A stretch of DNA of 64,000 nucleotides from Thalia democratica. Its lineage: Eukaryota. Location of the stretch: assembly GCA_965202585.1 (NCBI GenBank), contig OZ241830.1, positions 60,698,001-60,762,000 of the forward strand, written 5' to 3'. Positions 9,001 to 15,000 of this stretch are shown one piece after another. Made by a program: the position numbers. The first letter of the stretch is position 1. Every line of letters begins with the position of its first letter.

Positions 9001-12000
9001 GTAATAAAAATACTATGTTGATTAAAATTTTTAATATTCTACGTTGGTTTTTATTTTATTTATAAATAAATTTTAAGGCGCTGGATGTTGCTGAGAGACA
9101 TGACAGAATACATTTACGTTCAACTTATTATAATTATGCAAAATTTTTGGAGTCTTTAGGCGGATTTAAAGATGCAATTATGTAGTAAGTTTAATTTTAT
9201 TTAGTTTTGGTATATTGCAACAGTTATATAATGATTCAAATAATTTCAGCTATGAAAAATCAGGCACTCACCATTTTGAGGTGCCAAGAATGCTTTTTGA
9301 CGAACTTGATATGCTCGAATCTTATATTATGAATTCAAAAGATAGGTTAGTTTGAAATTTTTGAAATTTAACGTTTGTCTTTTTCATTTTTATAAAGTAG
9401 TTTTTAGTATTAACACTTAAAGTCTCCAATTTAAAACAACAAATATAGGAAAGGATTAATAACTTTAGTTTAAAAAAGTTTTTTTTAATAAAACGCTTAC
9501 TAATAGTAATTTTTTTAATTGTAAAAATTGATTTGGCTCAATTATTTTCATAACAAAAAGTATCTGATTTAACTTAAACAGAAAGTTTCGCAAATGGTGG
9601 GCACAATACATAGAATCAACAGGCGATATGGAAAATGCGTTGAAATTTTACCAACAAGCCGGAGACCCGTTGTCGCTCGTTAGAGTTTACAGTTACTGCG
9701 ACCAACTCGATAAAGTTTGTTAATATTTGCTCGAATATTTTTTCTTTTGAATGATTTTTGAAAATATTATAAAAAATTTAAAGATTGTTTGATATGTTTA
9801 ACCTAAATCAATTTGCTTAAATCACTTCAATTAAATTTTTTATTTTGTTATTTTAGTTCAATATTTTTTTTTTCAATAGTTAATATATTGTTTCTAGTAT
9901 TTTATGAAAGTTTGTCATTTAGATTTTAAACATACGAACTAATGCAGGCAGCTCAGGTAGCAAATGAAACGGGAAACAGGGCAGCCTGCTTCCATCTCGC
10001 CAGACAATATGAAAAAACTGATCAGCTCGACAAAGCAATCAACTTCTTTGCCCGCGCCATGGCTTACGGAAATGCTATTAGAATTTGTAAAGTTTGTCAC
10101 TTGATATTCGTATAAAAAAATATATAAGTTATAGCACATGTAGACAATGGACCAATTTATTTTGGTAATCAAAAACTTGAAGACTAATTGTTAACTTAAA
10201 CAAACAAAAATATATAATTTTCTTAAGTAAAATAAACAACGAAGTCAAAAATTTAGGCTATTTTATATCATAGACAATGTGTTTATTTTGGAAATTATCA
10301 AATTTAAATACTGTTCGTTGGTAATAAAATAAATTTAGGAACATGGGTTCGAGGAGCGGTTAATGAACATGGCACTTTTGAGTCCACCTCATGATATGGT
10401 TGAAGCTGCTAAATATTACGAACAAACTGACAACCTCATTGATAAAGCTGTTATGCTCTACCACAAGGTTTTCACTTGATTTTATCAGTGTTACTAGTTT
10501 TAGGTGTTTTTGTTTCTTTACAAGACAAAATTTAAAAGAAGTGCGCTTTTAAACTTTAAATAGTTTGTATGTAAAAATACAATGTCTGACATTAGTTATT
10601 TATATAAGTGTATGTGTTTTCATTACTTTATCACATATAAATAACTTTTGTTAAGACCCGTTAAACTTTCATATACAAAATTAAAGGAAATTTGTTTTAT
10701 ACACTGTAACTATTTTATGAGCAAATAGTTTTAATGCTTTTAATATCTTTGTGCATATTAAAAATAAATAATTCAATAACTATTTTATTAGTGTTTCATA
10801 AATAGTTTTCATAAAGTGTTTTGTGAGTTAAAAAATAATATTACAAATTTGAATCATTAAACAACGTTACAACAACGCAGGCGGGTCATTTTGCAAAGGC
10901 GATAGACCTGGCGTTCAAGTACGAACAGTTTGGCGCGCTGGAGCTCATTTCGGAGGATCTCAATGAAAACACGGACGCCAGCTTGCTGACGAAATGCGCG
11001 CAATTCTTCGCACAGCACGGTCAGCACGATCGAGCCATTAAGCTGCTCGTGTCCGCTAAAAACGTTTGTGCTTGTTCATGTTTCAATTCGAATAAACTTT
11101 ACACCTGAACGTTGTGTTACAGATCAAAGAAGCCATACAGGTTTGCAGCGACAACAACGTTCGCTTGACGGAAGAGCTCGTCGAAAAGCTGACCGTTTCC
11201 AGCGATCACCCCGAAATCACCCTCAAAGAGAGGTTTGTTGAAACTTATAATGAAAAATTGTGTTTTTATAACTGTAAATACTTTACAAGCAAGTATGTAG
11301 TATTTTTTTATTAGATGCATTAATTAAAAAATATCAACAACTATATCATCAGTCGTTCTACAGATAAACTTAACCAAGTTTTGTGTAAATCTAAAAAAAA
11401 ACTTTTTGATACAAGTTGTTGTTTAAAACTTCGGACTGCTGAATTTAAATTATTGATTAAGAAAAAATACATATTGTTCGATACAATCAAAAGGCAAAAG
11501 CAGCTGATGATGTTGGGCGACTGCTGCATGAAGCAGGGCGAGTACCTGTTGGCGTGCAAGAAGTACACGCAGTCGGGCAACGTGGACAAGGCGATGCGGG
11601 CTCTGCTGAAGTCGGGCGACACGCACAAGATAATCTATTACGCGAACACGAGCAAGCAGCGCGACCTGTTCGTCATGGCGGCGAACTACCTGCAGTCGCT
11701 CGACTGGCGCAACCACCCTGACGTAATGAACAACATCATCGCTTTTTACACGAAGGGAAAAGCTCACGAGTCGTTGGCCAACTTTTACGAGGCCTGCGCT
11801 CAGGTATGTTTTATGTTGAGCTTTTGAAATTTTTTTTTTTTAATAGTTAATAGCGTTGTTCTTTCTGCCTTAACTAAACATGTGCTAAGTTTGTATCTGA
11901 TATTTTTTTAAATTTTGACAAATTTTTATACAAAAATAAATTTCTGATTGCTTTGTTGACCAGTTTACAAAAAAAGAATGAAAACTAATTATGGTTTATA

Positions 12001-15000
12001 TTAATTTTCCAATAAATATTCAGATACGTTGTAGCAATTTTTCTGATCTAATTTTTTGTATCTGAATAATTAATAGTAGTTTAAAGGCTTGTATACTTTT
12101 TTGTGTGTTTTATTTGTTTGTAATTTTACTAAGTTGTTTGATTTTTTTTCAAGCGTTTTAAAATTTGTAAACAGGTAGAAATAGATGAATATCAAAATTA
12201 TGAAAAAGCAGTCGGTGCATTGACTGAAGCTTTTAAGTGTTTGTCAAAATCAAAAATTGAAGATAATGAAGAAAAAGAAAACAAATTGACAAGTTTAAAA
12301 ACAAAAATAGCACTTGTTAAAAAATTTGTCTCAACAAGAAGGTAGTTATATATTTATCATTTGTTTTTCAAAATAAAAAAAGTTTATATTTTATTTATTA
12401 GTTATGAGTAAATATTTCAAGATCAATTAAATTCCTTTTTTATTAATTGAAAATATCTTTTGAAAGCTATATTAAACGCAAAAACGCTTTTATTCTAGTA
12501 AAATATTCTAATTTTTTTAAAGTTTGTTAAAAGCTGTTTTAACTAATAAAAAAACTTTTTATAATACTTACCTACAATACTTCAAAGAAAATTGCAGAAG
12601 CAATAATTTTTTTACTTAATACTATTATTGCTCATAAAAAGCCTTGTTGTATTATTCTAATGTATAGTTTATACAAAATACAACTTTTATTTTATGCTTT
12701 TTAGTAAAAATTTGTTTAATTTCTGTTATTTTTCTGAATGCAAAAACAATTTTTTTTATGAACTATAAGTTGAGCTCAACGTTACTTTTATTTAATTTTT
12801 TATAATTATAAGTCGATAGTAATTTTAACAAAAAAGTGTTTTCATCAAAGATTGTTCGAAAGTGATGCGGAAGAAGGATTGAAGCAATGTTCAGTTCTTC
12901 TCGATCACGCCGATCTCTCTTCGTCTCCAGTCAGATACGGAGACGTTTACGCGTTGATCATCGAACATTATGTCAGCCAACAACAATTCGAACGAGTAAT
13001 TATAATTTGTTTATATTTTTCGTTACAGGATACATCTTTAATTTATTCATTAACAAATTGAATTTTTTCATTATAAAAGTTTATTTGTCAACCAAATTAA
13101 TATATTAAAAATCATGTTTTTTCAAATTTTTAATGTTTGTTAACCAATTGAACTTAAGTGCTAACGGAACGTTTTTGAGTTGCTAATGTTTCCCCGAATT
13201 CAAAATAGTTGTTTATTATGTAATAAAGTAATTATGAAAGGCGTACGAGTACGTGTTGGAAGTGAAGGAGAGAGTTCCGACGATCCGCCTCCACCACTTC
13301 GTCTCCTCCGCCGCTCTCCACCAAATATCAGCCAATCAGCATCCGCAATCAGAATCGTCCTCACATGATGACGGATCGTCGGCAGATGTGAAAGAGGAAA
13401 TTTACCAAGACGACAATATCACAACACACAGTTTCGCTTTTCGATGAAGAATGTTTATTTTGTAACAGCAGAGAGTTTAATATCAAAGTTTTTTAGATCT
13501 TATTTTTAATTTAAGTTTTGTTTATCAAATGATTGTTTATTCAAGCCAACAAAACAATTTTTAACTGTGATTTTTTGTTACCTAAGTTTTTCTGTACTTT
13601 AAGTGTTTACCTTTTTGGTATATTTAAGATTGTTTTTAGTTTAATTTTTATTTTGCGTTATTCACTGATTTCAATTAAAATTTTTTAATGTTTTTTTAGT
13701 TATTTTTGAGACTTCAGATTTAATAAATACTTCTGGTATAAAATATCAAGTGTTATAGAAAATTTTAACTTATTTAAGAAAATGCTTTTCATTACTTGTT
13801 AAAAATATTTTTTAACTAAACTGAAATATAATCATTTGGTATTGATATAACCATACATATTTTTTAATAGACATCTAACTAATTTAAAAGTTTATTTGTA
13901 GTAAAGTAATTAGTAATTATTACATTAAATAAATGAAAAGTAAAATTATTAATTTAATTTTGTATGTGCTCGTTAAAGTATAAGTTAAAATCGTATCTGC
14001 ATTTTGTTTAAATGTTGCAAATTTTATTTTTTTATTACTCTATTGTTAGAATTTTAAACTTTTACAAGAAACCTAGATGTTTTTTATTTGTATCAATTAC
14101 CATTGATAAGCTAAATTCTAAAAAAGAATTACTTTGGTAAACTATACAAAATAAAGCAAGCTTTGAAAGAATAAATCTCATCTAGCAAACATATTTTTTC
14201 TGTTGTACATAACTTTTATCTATAATTAAACTTTTTTATTAGTAAAAGTTTGTAAATATGTTCAATCAAGATAACTATAAATTCGGTTTAATTTTCTCCA
14301 AATAACGCGGTAAGCCAGCGGTTTTTTTGTGGTTTTTGTTTTTAAAAATAAAAATGAAATAAGTGTTACACATTCATCATTCAGTGATCACAAACTAAAC
14401 AATACAAAAAAATAACCCCGTGTTCATAGTTTATTTTAAAACTAAATTAACAATAATTTCAATAGACTCTACCATTAAATATGAGAGTTTTAATTTCAGT
14501 TAAACAAATTTATTGACATTTTGTAAAATAAAAATTTTCAAGAACATTATATTATTCACAACATAAAATCAACGGTATAATTATAGGTCAGCTGTAGTAG
14601 TAGGAGATTATTTTGTTCACAATCTTGTGCAAACAAGATGAGGTAATAACACAGTTGGTAAAAAATTAATGTATTTTGAACAATTATAATTAAGCTTTTG
14701 TCTTTAAAGCAAAAGTTGTATGTAAAGGATCTGTATAACCACCTCCCCTTATAATTTTTTACTCTTTTTCTCAAAAACTTAACATTTTAGTGTTATATCA
14801 AGTAACTTAGTTCTTTACTTTTCAAGTAAATTATATTTTTCTAAAATTTTAAGGAAATATGAATTTTGAAATAAAAGTTTCGAATCTATGACTGTTTGTT
14901 TTAATTATTGCGTTTTTTAACATACTTATTGCGTTTTTTAACATACTTATTAACTTTTGTTTAAGTTGTAAGTGTTCCTAGATTTACACCTTTTCGTTAA

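What the first reader, a model, noticed from the sequence alone, without database searches (positions are those of the whole stretch)
11494..12341. Neighbouring exons of one gene swing from ~87% to ~13% GC at third codon positions
Seen: exon 11494-11803 has 13 A/T-ending codons of 103, while the next exon, 12175-12341, has 7 G/C-ending codons of 55. The mosaic recurs in IFT140 (GC-rich 6266-6571, 8070-8241, 10881-11063; AT-rich 524-654, 5708-5835, 9078-9181) and WASHC4 (GC-rich 46020-46222, 52557-52700, 53652-53837; AT-rich 58807-59278). The GC-rich exons are CpG-rich and tend to be longer and AT-richer at their edges. Selection on translation acts per mRNA and would not explain this. Inference: a local 150-300-bp force, such as nucleosome-linked mutation or repair bias, GC-biased conversion, or sequence-based exon definition in very AT-rich pre-mRNA.
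Basis: partly seen in the sequence, partly recalled or inferred. Interest (0 to 1): 0.66.

Follow-up and report, generated by a model that had tools for sequence, protein, structure and literature searches.

The report
Exon-sized GC islands in AT-rich genes
Within single genes of a very AT-rich genome, some coding exons are GC-rich at silent codon positions while neighbouring exons and all introns stay AT-rich, which points to an unusual force on DNA composition that stops at exon borders.

Summary
Exon 11494-11803 has 90 of 103 G/C-ending codons and exon 12175-12341 has 7 of 55. Pfam profile coordinates run straight across their junction.

Across 28 IFT140 and 20 WASHC4 exons, GC3 ranges from 0.13 to 0.87. 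No synonymous-codon shuffle (0 of 5000 per gene) reaches the observed spread.

- **Confined to coding exons.** Introns stay near 22% GC whatever their neighbours are, and GC steps up within about 10 nt of the splice sites.
- **General and strand-symmetric.** All 18 degenerate amino acids shift. Third-position C and G are 231 and 232. Amino-acid composition shifts too.
- **CpG.** It is not depleted in GC-rich exons but is depleted in AT-rich exons.

An unreported 8.6-kb duplication of the IFT140 3' half (94% identity) shows the state is maintained. Introns differ at 5.7%, but 4-fold sites of GC-rich exons differ at 1 of 102.

The mechanism is unresolved. I favour GC-biased conversion confined to exons (0.35) over silent-site selection for exon recognition (0.28). 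Smooth nucleosome-scale mutation bias and translational selection fit poorly. No matching description turned up in 10 literature searches.

The parts
11494..11803 (+). GC-rich coding exon of IFT140 (GC3 90/103; 29 CpG)
   Evidence: PDB IFT140 match E=3e-42. Pfam TPR_IF140-IFT172 positions 404-486 plus TPR_IF140_C positions 1-12.
11804..12174 (+). Intron between the two exons, GC 0.22
   Evidence: Donor CAG|GTATGT; acceptor AACAG|GT at 12175, fixed by the Pfam profile continuing from position 12 to 13.
12175..12341 (+). AT-rich coding exon of IFT140 (GC3 7/55; 1 CpG)
   Evidence: Pfam TPR_IF140_C positions 13-67, E=6e-18.
1..13447 (+). IFT140, 28 exons in the window (5' end lies outside); GC3 per exon 0.13-0.87
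   Evidence: 23 of 28 exons have colinear Pfam hits. Exons 3259-3333, 3658-3880, 4978-5084, 7287-7432 and 13241-13444 rest on open frame, splice sites and phase only.
6266..6571 (+). GC-rich IFT140 exon (78/102), 71 nt from an exon with GC3 0.39
8070..8241 (+). GC-rich IFT140 exon (38/57)
10881..11232 (+). Two GC-rich IFT140 exons (10881-11063, 41/61; 11123-11232, 25/36) split by a 59-nt intron
46020..59516 (-). WASHC4, 20 exons used here; GC3 0.21-0.79, rising 5' to 3'
   Evidence: 17 of 20 exons have colinear Pfam hits (WASH-4_N, WASH-7_mid, WASH-7_C). Exons 55750-55876 and 53652-53837 have no hit, and 46639-46735 was not searched. A likely last exon at 45261-401 and the first exon or exons were left out of the counts.
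52557..52700 (-). GC-rich WASHC4 exon (37/47)
46020..46222 (-). GC-rich WASHC4 exon (50/67)
58807..58953 (-). AT-rich WASHC4 exon (10/48, 0 CpG)
6824..15460 (+). Copy A of an 8.6-kb duplicated segment (IFT140 exons 15-28 plus 2 kb downstream)
35579..44121 (+). Copy B, 94% identical to A. All 14 exons are intact and carry the same GC3 mosaic (for example 40157-40465 at 90/103 and 40839-41003 at 7/55).

Best explanation
**Shown.** Silent sites in these genes sit in two states.
- AT-rich exons and all introns lie at the genome's AT-biased, CpG-depleting background of about 22% GC.
- GC-rich tracts of about 80-300 nt inside coding exons are held far from that background. The bias favours G and C equally, at every degenerate amino acid. 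It also nudges amino-acid composition and spares CpG.
- The bias ends within about 10 nt of the splice sites.
- It is still acting: silent G/C in GC-rich exons has barely changed between two copies whose introns differ by 5.7%.

**Inferred.** The mechanism I think most likely is GC-biased repair of mismatches in short gene-conversion tracts. The tracts would be confined to coding exons because only exons keep enough uninterrupted identity between the recombining copies, whether alleles or the two duplicates seen here. Introns differ by about 6% plus frequent indels, so heteroduplex would not extend into them. Long exons and exon centres would then be converted most often. A fixation bias of about B=2-3 would be enough to lift silent GC from 0.22 to 0.75-0.87.
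For: - **Heterogeneity beyond chance and amino acids.** 0 of 5000 synonymous shuffles per gene reach the observed chi-square.
- **General, symmetric shift.** All 18 of 18 degenerate amino acids shift to G/C endings. Third-position C and G are 231 and 232. GARP (Gly, Ala, Arg, Pro) residues are 18.4% in GC-rich exons against 12.7% in AT-rich ones, p=0.003. FYMINK (Phe, Tyr, Met, Ile, Asn, Lys) residues are 26.2% against 35.2%, p=0.0002.
- **Tract-like clustering inside exons.** Runs test Stouffer Z=-3.66, 48 exons.
- **Length and edge effects.** Exon length against GC3 gives rho 0.41, p=0.004. Edges are 61/100 against 192/234 in the centre, p=8e-5.
- **CpG.** The C|G codon junction is at 1.11 of expectation in GC-rich exons and 0.63 in AT-rich ones, where 2 of 2000 shuffles are as low.
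- **Copy comparison.** Introns differ at 5.7% (312/5514 sites more than 30 nt from an exon) with 161 gap columns. The 14 exons differ at 14/2130 with 0 gap columns.
- **Silent sites of GC-rich exons.** 4-fold sites differ at 1/102 where intron rates predict 8.3 (P=0.002).
- **Strength needed.** B of 2.2-3.2 reproduces the observed silent GC.
- **No link to protein conservation.** Rho 0.06, n=40.
Against: - **Introns are spared.** From recall, in the gBGC systems I know of the flanking non-coding DNA is enriched together with GC3. Here introns stay at 0.20-0.24, with only a weak correlation to neighbouring exon GC3 (rho 0.34, p=0.019). The step is sharp. Confinement by homology is my inference and is untested.
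- **No gradient between the copies.** Intron divergence is as high 1-10 nt from exons (14/276) as deep inside introns. Tracts with random ends would not obviously give this.
- **The simple model is a borderline misfit.** The equilibrium fixation-bias model predicts 4.8 differences at the 102 sites against 1 seen (P=0.049).
- **Long AT-rich exons exist.** Exon 59110-59516 is 407 nt with GC3 0.27, and 12175-12341 is 167 nt with GC3 0.13.
- **The other exons are not clearly different from introns.** Their 4-fold sites differ at 6/159 (P=0.2).
- **Missing data.** There is no outgroup, no polymorphism and no recombination data, so the direction of change is not shown. Whether copies A and B are paralogues or two haplotypes assembled in tandem is unknown.
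Confidence: 0.35

Rival explanations
1. Selection on silent sites at the pre-mRNA or transcript level. G/C content marks some exons as 'exon' in a very AT-rich pre-mRNA, or protects the transcript from cryptic splice or polyadenylation signals. Splicing enhancers keep the exon ends A/T-rich.
For: - This selection is exon-specific by nature, which fits the sharp step at splice sites and flat introns.
- Exon edges are AT-richer and longer exons are GC-richer.
- Silent sites of GC-rich exons are conserved between copies A and B even beyond the fixation-bias expectation (1 seen against 4.8).
- GC-rich exons tend to have weaker acceptor tracts (mean 6.9 against 7.9 bits; rho -0.24).
- A selection-for-GC idea, the 'unwanted transcript' hypothesis, exists for mammals (abstracts seen in the listing).
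Against: - The acceptor trend is not significant (p=0.11 and p=0.21). Donor strength (rho 0.09) and flanking intron lengths (rho 0.02 and 0.13) show nothing.
- 20 of 48 exons are spliced with GC3 of 0.40 or less, including a 407-nt one, so G/C contrast is not generally needed.
- The equal rise of G and C and the shift of amino-acid composition look like a composition pressure rather than motif selection.
- It requires selection at nearly every silent site.
Confidence: 0.28
2. A chromatin-linked mutation or repair bias. Exons that carry a well-positioned nucleosome or an exon-enriched histone mark lose fewer G/C bases, while exons methylated in the germline decay to A/T.
For: - Tract size is 80-300 nt.
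- AT-rich exons carry a CpG-depletion signature while GC-rich ones do not.
- GC3 rises 5' to 3' in WASHC4 (rho 0.66, p=0.0015). Exons in the 3' parts of the two genes average 0.53 against 0.34 in the 5' parts (p=0.0001).
Against: - There is no spill-over into intron flanks 11-100 nt from GC-rich exons.
- CpG decay alone cannot take GC3 from 0.87 to 0.13. Exon 11494-11803 has 29 CpG against 90 G/C third positions.
- The roughly 8-fold deficit of changes at silent sites of GC-rich exons (1 seen against 8.3 expected) is, from recall, larger than nucleosome or mismatch-repair effects reported elsewhere.
Confidence: 0.12
3. Repair or conversion templated by spliced transcripts (RNA or cDNA) with a GC bias. 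A spliced template is homologous to exons only, so tracts end before each junction.
For: - Exon borders are exact for both composition and A/B conservation.
- There are edge and length effects.
- GC3 is higher toward the 3' ends.
- The exons of the partial copy B are kept near-identical to A while introns diverge.
Against: - No direct evidence here.
- Introns between adjacent GC-rich exons, such as the 59-nt intron 11064-11122, have not been lost, although a spliced template would tend to remove them.
- A GC bias for such repair is not known to me (recall).
- The region just after the IFT140 stop codon is 0.21 GC, although the GC tract of that last exon ends well before the stop.
Confidence: 0.06
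4. Translational (codon-usage) selection that varies along the mRNA.
For: G/C-ending codons are the preferred ones in several animals (abstract of PMC3704236 seen in the listing). Overall GC3 is 0.48 in both genes against 0.22 in introns.
Against: - All 18 amino acids shift, G equals C, and amino-acid composition shifts as well.
- There is no link with conservation (rho 0.06).
- There is no correlation across junctions at equal mRNA distance.
- The true junctions partition the GC3 series better than random cuts in IFT140 (23 of 5000 random cuts reach the observed value).
Confidence: 0.05
5. A non-equilibrium relic. Coding sequence was once GC-rich and exons are decaying to A/T at different speeds.
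For: The spread of GC3 is continuous from 0.13 to 0.87, and partly decayed-looking exons have short G/C runs.
Against: Silent G/C in GC-rich exons is not decaying. Of 194 G/C third positions in the duplicated GC-rich exons, 0 show G/C in A against A/T in B, and 1 of 63 shows the reverse. Intronic G/C sites differ at 9.7% (123/1263).
Confidence: 0.07

Closest known systems
Intron 'barrier effect' on G+C content in plant genes (Ressayre et al. 2015, PMC4684703; abstract and outline read)
   Same: Nucleotide and codon composition changes in steps at intron positions rather than smoothly along the coding sequence. GC-biased conversion is invoked for part of the pattern.
   Different: - In plants the pattern is a rank-ordered 5'-to-3' decrease, with internal exons held in a narrow range. 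Here it is a non-monotonic mosaic of 0.13-0.87 among internal exons, rising toward the 3' end where there is any trend.
- I did not read that paper's results sections or supplements.
GC-biased gene conversion hotspots and biased substitution clusters in exons (for example PMC2631073, title and start of abstract seen in the listing; honeybee gBGC, PMC4406589, listing)
   Same: Short tracts, favouring G/C at all site classes, independent of tRNA preferences, and able to shift amino acids.
   Different: From recall, known cases affect neighbouring non-coding DNA as well. Here introns are spared, with a step of about 10 nt or less. Direction of change and recombination could not be tested.
Ectopic gene conversion raising GC3 in duplicated genes (recalled: work on mammalian histone and Hsp70 genes; no paper read here)
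   Same: Copies A and B keep near-identical exons (14/2130 differences) against diverged introns (5.7%). The most homogeneous exons are the GC-rich ones.
   Different: GC-rich exons also occur outside the duplicated segment, in 6266-6571 and in WASHC4. There is no gradient of identity into the introns.
Exon-intron GC differential and exon definition (Amit et al. 2012, seen only as a reference entry); trade-off between splicing signals and codon usage near exon ends (recalled)
   Same: Exons are GC-richer than AT-rich introns, and exon ends are more A/T-rich than centres.
   Different: As recalled, those effects are modest and apply to exons in general. Here the amplitude is extreme and only some exons show it, with no significant link to splice-site strength or intron length.
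Mosaic germline CpG methylation of invertebrate gene bodies (recalled; PMC3762193 seen in the listings)
   Same: CpG depletion in some exons and not in others; 5' exons are the depleted ones in WASHC4.
   Different: CpG loss cannot account for the size of the GC3 swing. Methylation itself was not measurable here.

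Membership tests
IFT140 gene | Colinear matches to the IFT140 beta-propeller and TPR domain families and to solved IFT140 chains | tested here: met
   23 of 28 exons have colinear Pfam hits. Exon 11495-11803 matches PDB IFT140 chains with E=3e-42. Searches were run exon by exon only.
WASHC4 (SWIP) gene | Colinear matches to WASH-4_N, WASH-7_mid and WASH-7_C | tested here: met
   17 of 20 exons have colinear Pfam hits. There was no PDB relative for the two exons tried.
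GC-biased gene conversion tract or hotspot | G and C favoured equally at all synonymous families, with spill-over to amino-acid composition | tested here: met
   18 of 18 amino acids shift; third-position C 231 and G 232; GARP up and FYMINK down.
GC-biased gene conversion tract or hotspot | Flanking non-coding DNA enriched together with silent coding sites | tested here: not met
   Introns are 0.20-0.24 GC throughout, with a step at the splice site. There is only a weak rank correlation (rho 0.34, p=0.019).
GC-biased gene conversion tract or hotspot | Excess of A/T-to-G/C over G/C-to-A/T fixations and skewed allele frequencies; association with recombination | not testable with these tools
   No outgroup, population or recombination data. 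The only genome collection on hand is prokaryotic. The copy A/B comparison is unpolarised.
Translational codon-usage selection | Preference for particular codons matching tRNA supply, strongest at conserved residues, uniform per mRNA | tested here: not met
   The shift is general. There is no link with Pfam bits per residue (rho 0.06, n=40). Exon-to-exon chi-square is 210.8 and 129.6.
GC-contrast exon definition | Higher exon GC compensates for weak splice sites or long flanking introns | tested here: inconclusive
   Acceptor rho -0.24 (p=0.11), donor rho 0.09, intron lengths rho 0.02 and 0.13. Mann-Whitney p=0.21. The position weight matrices were crude and built from the same 47 sites.
Nucleosome-scale mutation or repair bias | Smooth profile on the ~147-bp scale that extends into adjacent intron | tested here: not met
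   Intron bins 11-100 nt from GC-rich exons are no GC-richer than those next to AT-rich exons. Nucleosome occupancy itself is not testable here.
Intron-structured step gradient (plant type) | Step changes at introns | tested here: met
   Phi is 0.15-0.17 within exons against 0.01-0.03 across a junction. In the junction test, 23 of 5000 random cuts reach the observed value in IFT140 and 602 of 5000 in WASHC4 (combined p=0.005).
Intron-structured step gradient (plant type) | Monotonic 5'-to-3' decrease with exon rank | tested here: not met
   GC3 rises with rank in WASHC4 (rho 0.66) and weakly in IFT140 (rho 0.34, p=0.07). Lag-1 correlation between neighbouring exons is 0.07 and 0.33, neither significant.
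Germline CpG methylation signature | CpG depletion relative to composition and to GpC | tested here: met
   For AT-rich exons only: CpG observed/expected 0.50 with GpC 1.34; C|G codon junction at 0.63 of expectation (2 of 2000 shuffles as low); NCG 10 of 153 NCN codons. GC-rich exons give 1.11. Methylation itself was not measured.

The most novel reading that the evidence does not exclude
Intron-exon structure itself gates GC-biased conversion. In this genome, heteroduplex can form only inside coding exons. That would be either because introns of the recombining copies are too diverged and indel-ridden, or because spliced transcripts serve as repair templates. Conversion and its G/C bias would then build exon-sized GC and CpG islands in an otherwise 22%-GC gene, and would keep paralogous or allelic exons near-identical while introns drift apart.
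Probability: 0.25. Interest if true: 0.85.

Novelty: new variant of a known kind. Interest (0 to 1): 0.6.

Why it matters
Silent sites are widely used as a neutral yardstick, for dS, codon-bias models and demographic inference. Here, silent sites a few hundred bases apart in one gene sit at 13% and 87% GC, and they differ several-fold in how fast they change between two copies. Gene-level GC3, dN/dS and codon-usage measures would therefore be misleading in this organism.

The pattern also offers a clean natural contrast: the same gene and the same introns, but exons in two states. That contrast could separate GC-biased conversion from silent-site selection for splicing, a long-standing dispute. 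If exon confinement of conversion were shown, it would be a new way in which introns shape genome composition.

Tried and rejected
- **Six-frame query.** I did not pursue it and searched exon by exon instead.
- **First exon finder.** It scored amino acids against an AT-rich null and chose wrong Arg/Gly/Ala-rich frames inside GC-rich exons. A local-composition null was better but still broke genes. Final models came from anchored intron-by-intron splice-site choice checked with Pfam.
- **Homology searches with no result.** Pfam gave nothing for 3261-3332, 3660-3878, 4980-5084, 7287-7430, 13241-13444, 55750-55875 and 53652-53837. The PDB gave nothing for three of them.
- **RNA genes.** Rfam and tRNA scans of the window found nothing.
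- **Negative correlations.** Splice-site strength, flanking intron length and protein conservation do not explain GC3.
- **Region after the IFT140 stop.** It is AT-rich (0.21 GC) and differs at 9/298 between copies. This does not discriminate, because the GC tract of the last exon ends before the stop. The poly(A)-signal listing had an offset error and was not used.
- **Literature.** Ten searches found no description of an exon-by-exon GC3 mosaic with flat AT-rich introns. The search on GTTTGT donor sites was uninformative.
- **Organism.** It was not identified. Very AT-rich insects discussed in PMC10978632 (passages read) have uniformly low GC3 of 10-15%, unlike the 0.48 seen here.

Full report
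**Observation.** The window is 26.7% G+C and has no N. In the frame that stays open, 11495-11803 has 90 G/C-ending codons of 103 and 12175-12339 has 7 of 55, exactly as reported (Fisher p=6e-21).
- The first exon matches solved IFT140 chains (8fgw_E residues 1192-1291, E=3e-42).
- It also matches Pfam TPR_IF140-IFT172 positions 404-486 followed by TPR_IF140_C positions 1-12. The second exon continues at TPR_IF140_C positions 13-67.
- The previous exon ends at profile position 396, and the open frame upstream of 11494 has no hit.
- So the exon borders are right, and the 87%-to-13% switch falls on a splice junction, across a 371-nt intron of 22% GC.

**Gene models.** I built exon tables from open frames, AG/GT sites and phase continuity. 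I checked every exon separately with Pfam.
- IFT140: 28 exons on the + strand (1-13444), of which 23 have colinear hits.
- WASHC4: 20 exons on the - strand (59516-20), of which 17 have colinear hits.
- Eight exons rest on frame and splice evidence only. A few small exons may be missing: between 3880 and 4763, between 51405 and 50058, and at the two ends of WASHC4.
- All searches were exon by exon.
- The window is not human. Its best exon is about 65% identical to the human chain by my own count on the alignment printed, and its composition is 26.7% GC.

**Size of the effect.** GC3 per exon runs from 0.13 to 0.87 in IFT140 and from 0.21 to 0.79 in WASHC4, as a continuum.
- Heterogeneity chi-square is 210.8 (df 27, p=2e-30) and 129.6 (df 19, p=2e-18).
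- When synonymous codons are shuffled among identical amino acids across each gene, 0 of 5000 shuffles reach the observed value (shuffle means 27.8 and 20.1).
- Each exon's amino acids predict a GC3 of 0.42-0.53.
- 4-fold sites alone give p=3e-11 and 2e-8.
- Restricting to homology-supported exons changes nothing (chi-square 207.4 and 106.6).
Nothing genome-wide could be tested.

**Where the signal sits.**
- Intron stretches beside GC-rich exons (GC3 0.6 or more, n=10) are 0.27 GC upstream and 0.23 downstream. Beside AT-rich exons (GC3 0.4 or less, n=20) they are 0.22 and 0.22.
- In 10-nt bins, GC jumps from 0.21-0.24 in the intron (11-20 nt out) to 0.47-0.48 in the first 10 exon bases. Intron bins do not differ between the exon classes beyond noise.
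- Whole introns are 0.17-0.33 GC (pooled 0.20-0.23). They correlate only weakly with the GC3 of their flanking exons (rho 0.34, p=0.019, n=46).
- Of 30 islands with 90-nt GC of 0.47 or more, 25 are exons of IFT140, of its duplicate, or of WASHC4. One is a CUB-domain exon and four look like repeats.
- GC3 state correlates within an exon (phi 0.15-0.17 at codon distances 1-50) but not across one junction (phi 0.01-0.03).
- Cutting the same series of third-position states with the same exon lengths in random order reaches the true chi-square in 23 of 5000 trials for IFT140, but in 602 of 5000 for WASHC4 (combined p=0.005). So junction alignment is clear in one gene and not significant in the other.
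- Neighbouring exons can differ sharply over very short introns: 0.39 against 0.76 across 71 nt.
- States are also clustered inside exons (Stouffer Z=-3.66). From the strings, tracts are about 80-300 nt.

**Nature of the shift.**
- All 18 degenerate amino acids use more G/C endings in GC-rich exons.
- Third-position C and G are equal (231 and 232).
- Arg CGN against AGR is 19:18 in GC-rich exons and 4:13 in AT-rich exons.
- GARP (Gly, Ala, Arg, Pro) residues rise from 12.7% to 18.4% (p=0.003). FYMINK (Phe, Tyr, Met, Ile, Asn, Lys) residues fall from 35.2% to 26.2% (p=0.0002).
- GC1 and GC2 move little (0.43 to 0.51 and 0.29 to 0.33).
- CpG observed/expected is 1.11 in GC-rich exons, 0.50 in AT-rich exons and 0.74 outside these exons, with GpC at 1.13-1.34 as a control.
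- Allowing for codon positions, the C|G codon junction is at 1.11 of its shuffle expectation in GC-rich exons and 0.63 in AT-rich exons (2 of 2000 shuffles as low). NCG codons are 47 of 108 NCN against 10 of 153.
- AT-rich exons thus resemble introns (AT-rich, CpG-depleted). The GC-rich tracts are the departure.

**Covariates.**

| Covariate | Result |
|---|---|
| Exon length (GC-rich exons longer) | rho 0.41, p=0.004; medians 178 against 123 nt; Mann-Whitney p=0.009 |
| Edge against centre within GC-rich exons | 61/100 against 192/234, p=8e-5 |
| Exon rank, 5' to 3' | WASHC4 rho 0.66, p=0.0015; IFT140 rho 0.34, p=0.07 |
| Donor strength | rho 0.09 |
| Acceptor strength | rho -0.24, p=0.11; class test p=0.21 |
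| Flanking intron lengths | rho 0.02 and 0.13 |
| Pfam bits per residue | rho 0.06, n=40 |

Counter-examples to a pure length rule are the 407-nt exon at GC3 0.27 and the 167-nt exon at GC3 0.13.

**The duplication, found in passing.** Segment 6824-15460 recurs at 35579-44121 at 94% identity with 67 gap openings. A further piece, 15458-15597, matches 45654-45793. Copy B holds IFT140 exons 15-28 only.
- All 14 exons in B are intact, with 4 amino-acid differences and the same GC3 mosaic.

| Site class | Differences between copies A and B |
|---|---|
| Intron columns | 242/4369, plus 161 gap columns |
| Intron, 1-10 nt from an exon | 14/276 (no gradient toward exons) |
| Intron, more than 30 nt from an exon | 312/5514 |
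| All exon positions | 14/2130, 0 gap columns |
| Third codon positions | 9/705 (P=2e-9 against the intron rate) |
| Intronic G/C sites | 123/1263 |
| Intronic A/T sites | 189/4251 |
| G/C third positions | 7/371 |
| A/T third positions | 2/334 |
| 4-fold sites, all | 7/261 (P=0.018) |
| 4-fold sites, four GC-rich exons | 1/102 |
| 4-fold sites, other ten exons | 6/159 (P=0.2, not different from introns) |

- From intron rates, the 102 silent sites of GC-rich exons should show 8.3 differences (P(≤1)=0.002).
- An equilibrium fixation bias of B=2.2 predicts 4.8 (P=0.049).
- So silent G/C in GC-rich exons is being actively kept, and slightly more than the simple model predicts.
- I cannot tell whether A and B are true paralogues or two haplotypes assembled in tandem. 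Either way the contrast holds.

**Mechanism.**
- *Shown.* An exon-bounded, currently maintained, strand-symmetric pressure toward G/C acts at silent sites of some coding tracts, on a background of AT-biased, CpG-depleting change.
- *Inferred cause.* Translational selection fits poorly: the shift is general, amino acids shift too, there is no link with conservation, and the unit is the exon. A smooth chromatin-scale mutation bias fits poorly: the step is sharp, and the stability is too large. A decaying relic is contradicted by the A/B comparison.
- *The two that remain.* (a) GC-biased conversion confined to exons. (b) Selection on silent sites tied to exon recognition or transcript protection.
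- *For (a).* It best explains the symmetric, all-codon, amino-acid-shifting, CpG-sparing, tract-like character, and the length and edge effects. It must assume that heteroduplex cannot enter introns. The 5.7% divergence plus indels of introns against 0.7% in exons gives a concrete reason, but that reason is untested.
- *For (b).* It explains the sharp borders without extra assumptions. It has no support from splice-site strength or intron length, and many AT-rich exons splice without G/C contrast.
- *Weights.* I put (a) at 0.35 and (b) at 0.28. A spliced-RNA-templated variant of (a) would give exact borders and a 3' bias, but it is speculative (0.06).

**Comparison with what is known.**
- The nearest described pattern is the 'barrier effect' of introns on G+C in Arabidopsis and rice (PMC4684703, abstract and outline read). 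It shares step changes at introns. But it is a rank-ordered 5'-to-3' decline, not a mosaic among internal exons.
- From recall, gBGC hotspots also enrich flanking non-coding DNA, which is not seen here. (PMC2631073 and PMC4406589 were seen as search listings only.)
- The exon-intron GC differential (Amit et al. 2012) was seen only as a reference entry. Splicing-translation trade-offs at exon ends are recalled. Both are qualitatively similar but of much smaller amplitude as I recall them.
- Ten full-text searches found no report of an exon-by-exon GC3 mosaic with flat AT-rich introns. That is not proof that none exists, especially for an organism I could not name.

**Limits.**
- The evidence is two genes and one duplicate in one 64-kb window.
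- The organism is unknown.
- There is no outgroup, polymorphism, expression, methylation, nucleosome or recombination data.
The one open genome collection holds only bacteria and archaea and was not used. So no orthologous locus could be fetched and no change could be polarised.
- Supplementary files of papers were closed and none was needed for a claim here.
- The splice-site scores are crude matrices built from the same 47 sites they score.

Noticed in passing
window 6824-15460 and 35579-44121 (+); also 15458-15597 and 45654-45793: An 8.6-kb segment holding IFT140 exons 15-28 and 2 kb downstream is present twice, at 94% identity with many indels. The two copies are 28.7 kb apart. Copy B lacks the 5' half of the gene, yet all 14 of its exons are intact (4 amino-acid differences). 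It could be a true partial duplication or two haplotypes assembled in tandem.
   Followed up: yes
window 44121-45654: About 1.5 kb is present only beside copy B, between the two matched pieces. It holds an open frame at 44355-44507 (-) that looked transposase-like to me but has no Pfam hit.
   Followed up: partly
window 8406-8639 (+) and 51025-51261 (-): A 240-nt repeat, 82.5% identical, lies in an IFT140 intron and, inverted, in a WASHC4 intron. It is probably a mobile-element fragment.
   Followed up: no
window 16061-16189, 19900-20032, 27569-27737, 31145-31316; also 7855-7975 with its copy near 36534-36650: These are the GC-rich islands that are not exons. They translate to similar short peptides at 16062-16178 and 19855-20037, or contain internal direct repeats (31145-31316). 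They look like short interspersed repeats that have not yet decayed to the AT-rich background.
   Followed up: partly
window 18956-19123 (-): An isolated exon-like open frame matches the C-terminal half of a CUB domain (Pfam E=7e-5) and has GC3 0.68. It is a possible third gene showing a GC-rich exon. Its other exons were not found.
   Followed up: partly
window 30315-30584 (-): An open frame with a weak, non-significant match to the hAT transposase dimerisation domain (E=0.11). The 15.6-35.5 kb stretch between the two IFT140 copies has few coding-like frames.
   Followed up: partly
donor sites of both genes, for example 8828, 9715, 10092, 11064, 11233, and (- strand) 55749, 54118, 53651, 52075, 47155: 10 of 47 introns begin GTTTG rather than GTAAG or GTRAG, which is an unusual 5' splice-site variant. 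A literature search on the motif was uninformative.
   Followed up: partly
window 1-13000 against 46000-64000: GC skew on the + strand is mostly positive over IFT140 (a + strand gene) and mostly negative over WASHC4 (a - strand gene). So G exceeds C on the coding strand, introns included, which is consistent with a transcription-linked strand asymmetry.
   Followed up: no
window 11453-11839 (-), 6225-6527 (-), 7867-8247 (-): Long antisense and off-frame open reading frames (about 100-130 codons) lie over the GC-rich exons. They are the expected by-product of stop-poor GC-rich sequence. They misled my first exon finder and could mislead gene predictors.
   Followed up: yes
window 45261-45401 (-): Probable last coding exon of WASHC4, with a weak colinear match to WASH-7_C positions 159-175 (E=0.025). 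It is AT-rich (GC3 0.32) and was not included in the statistics.
   Followed up: partly
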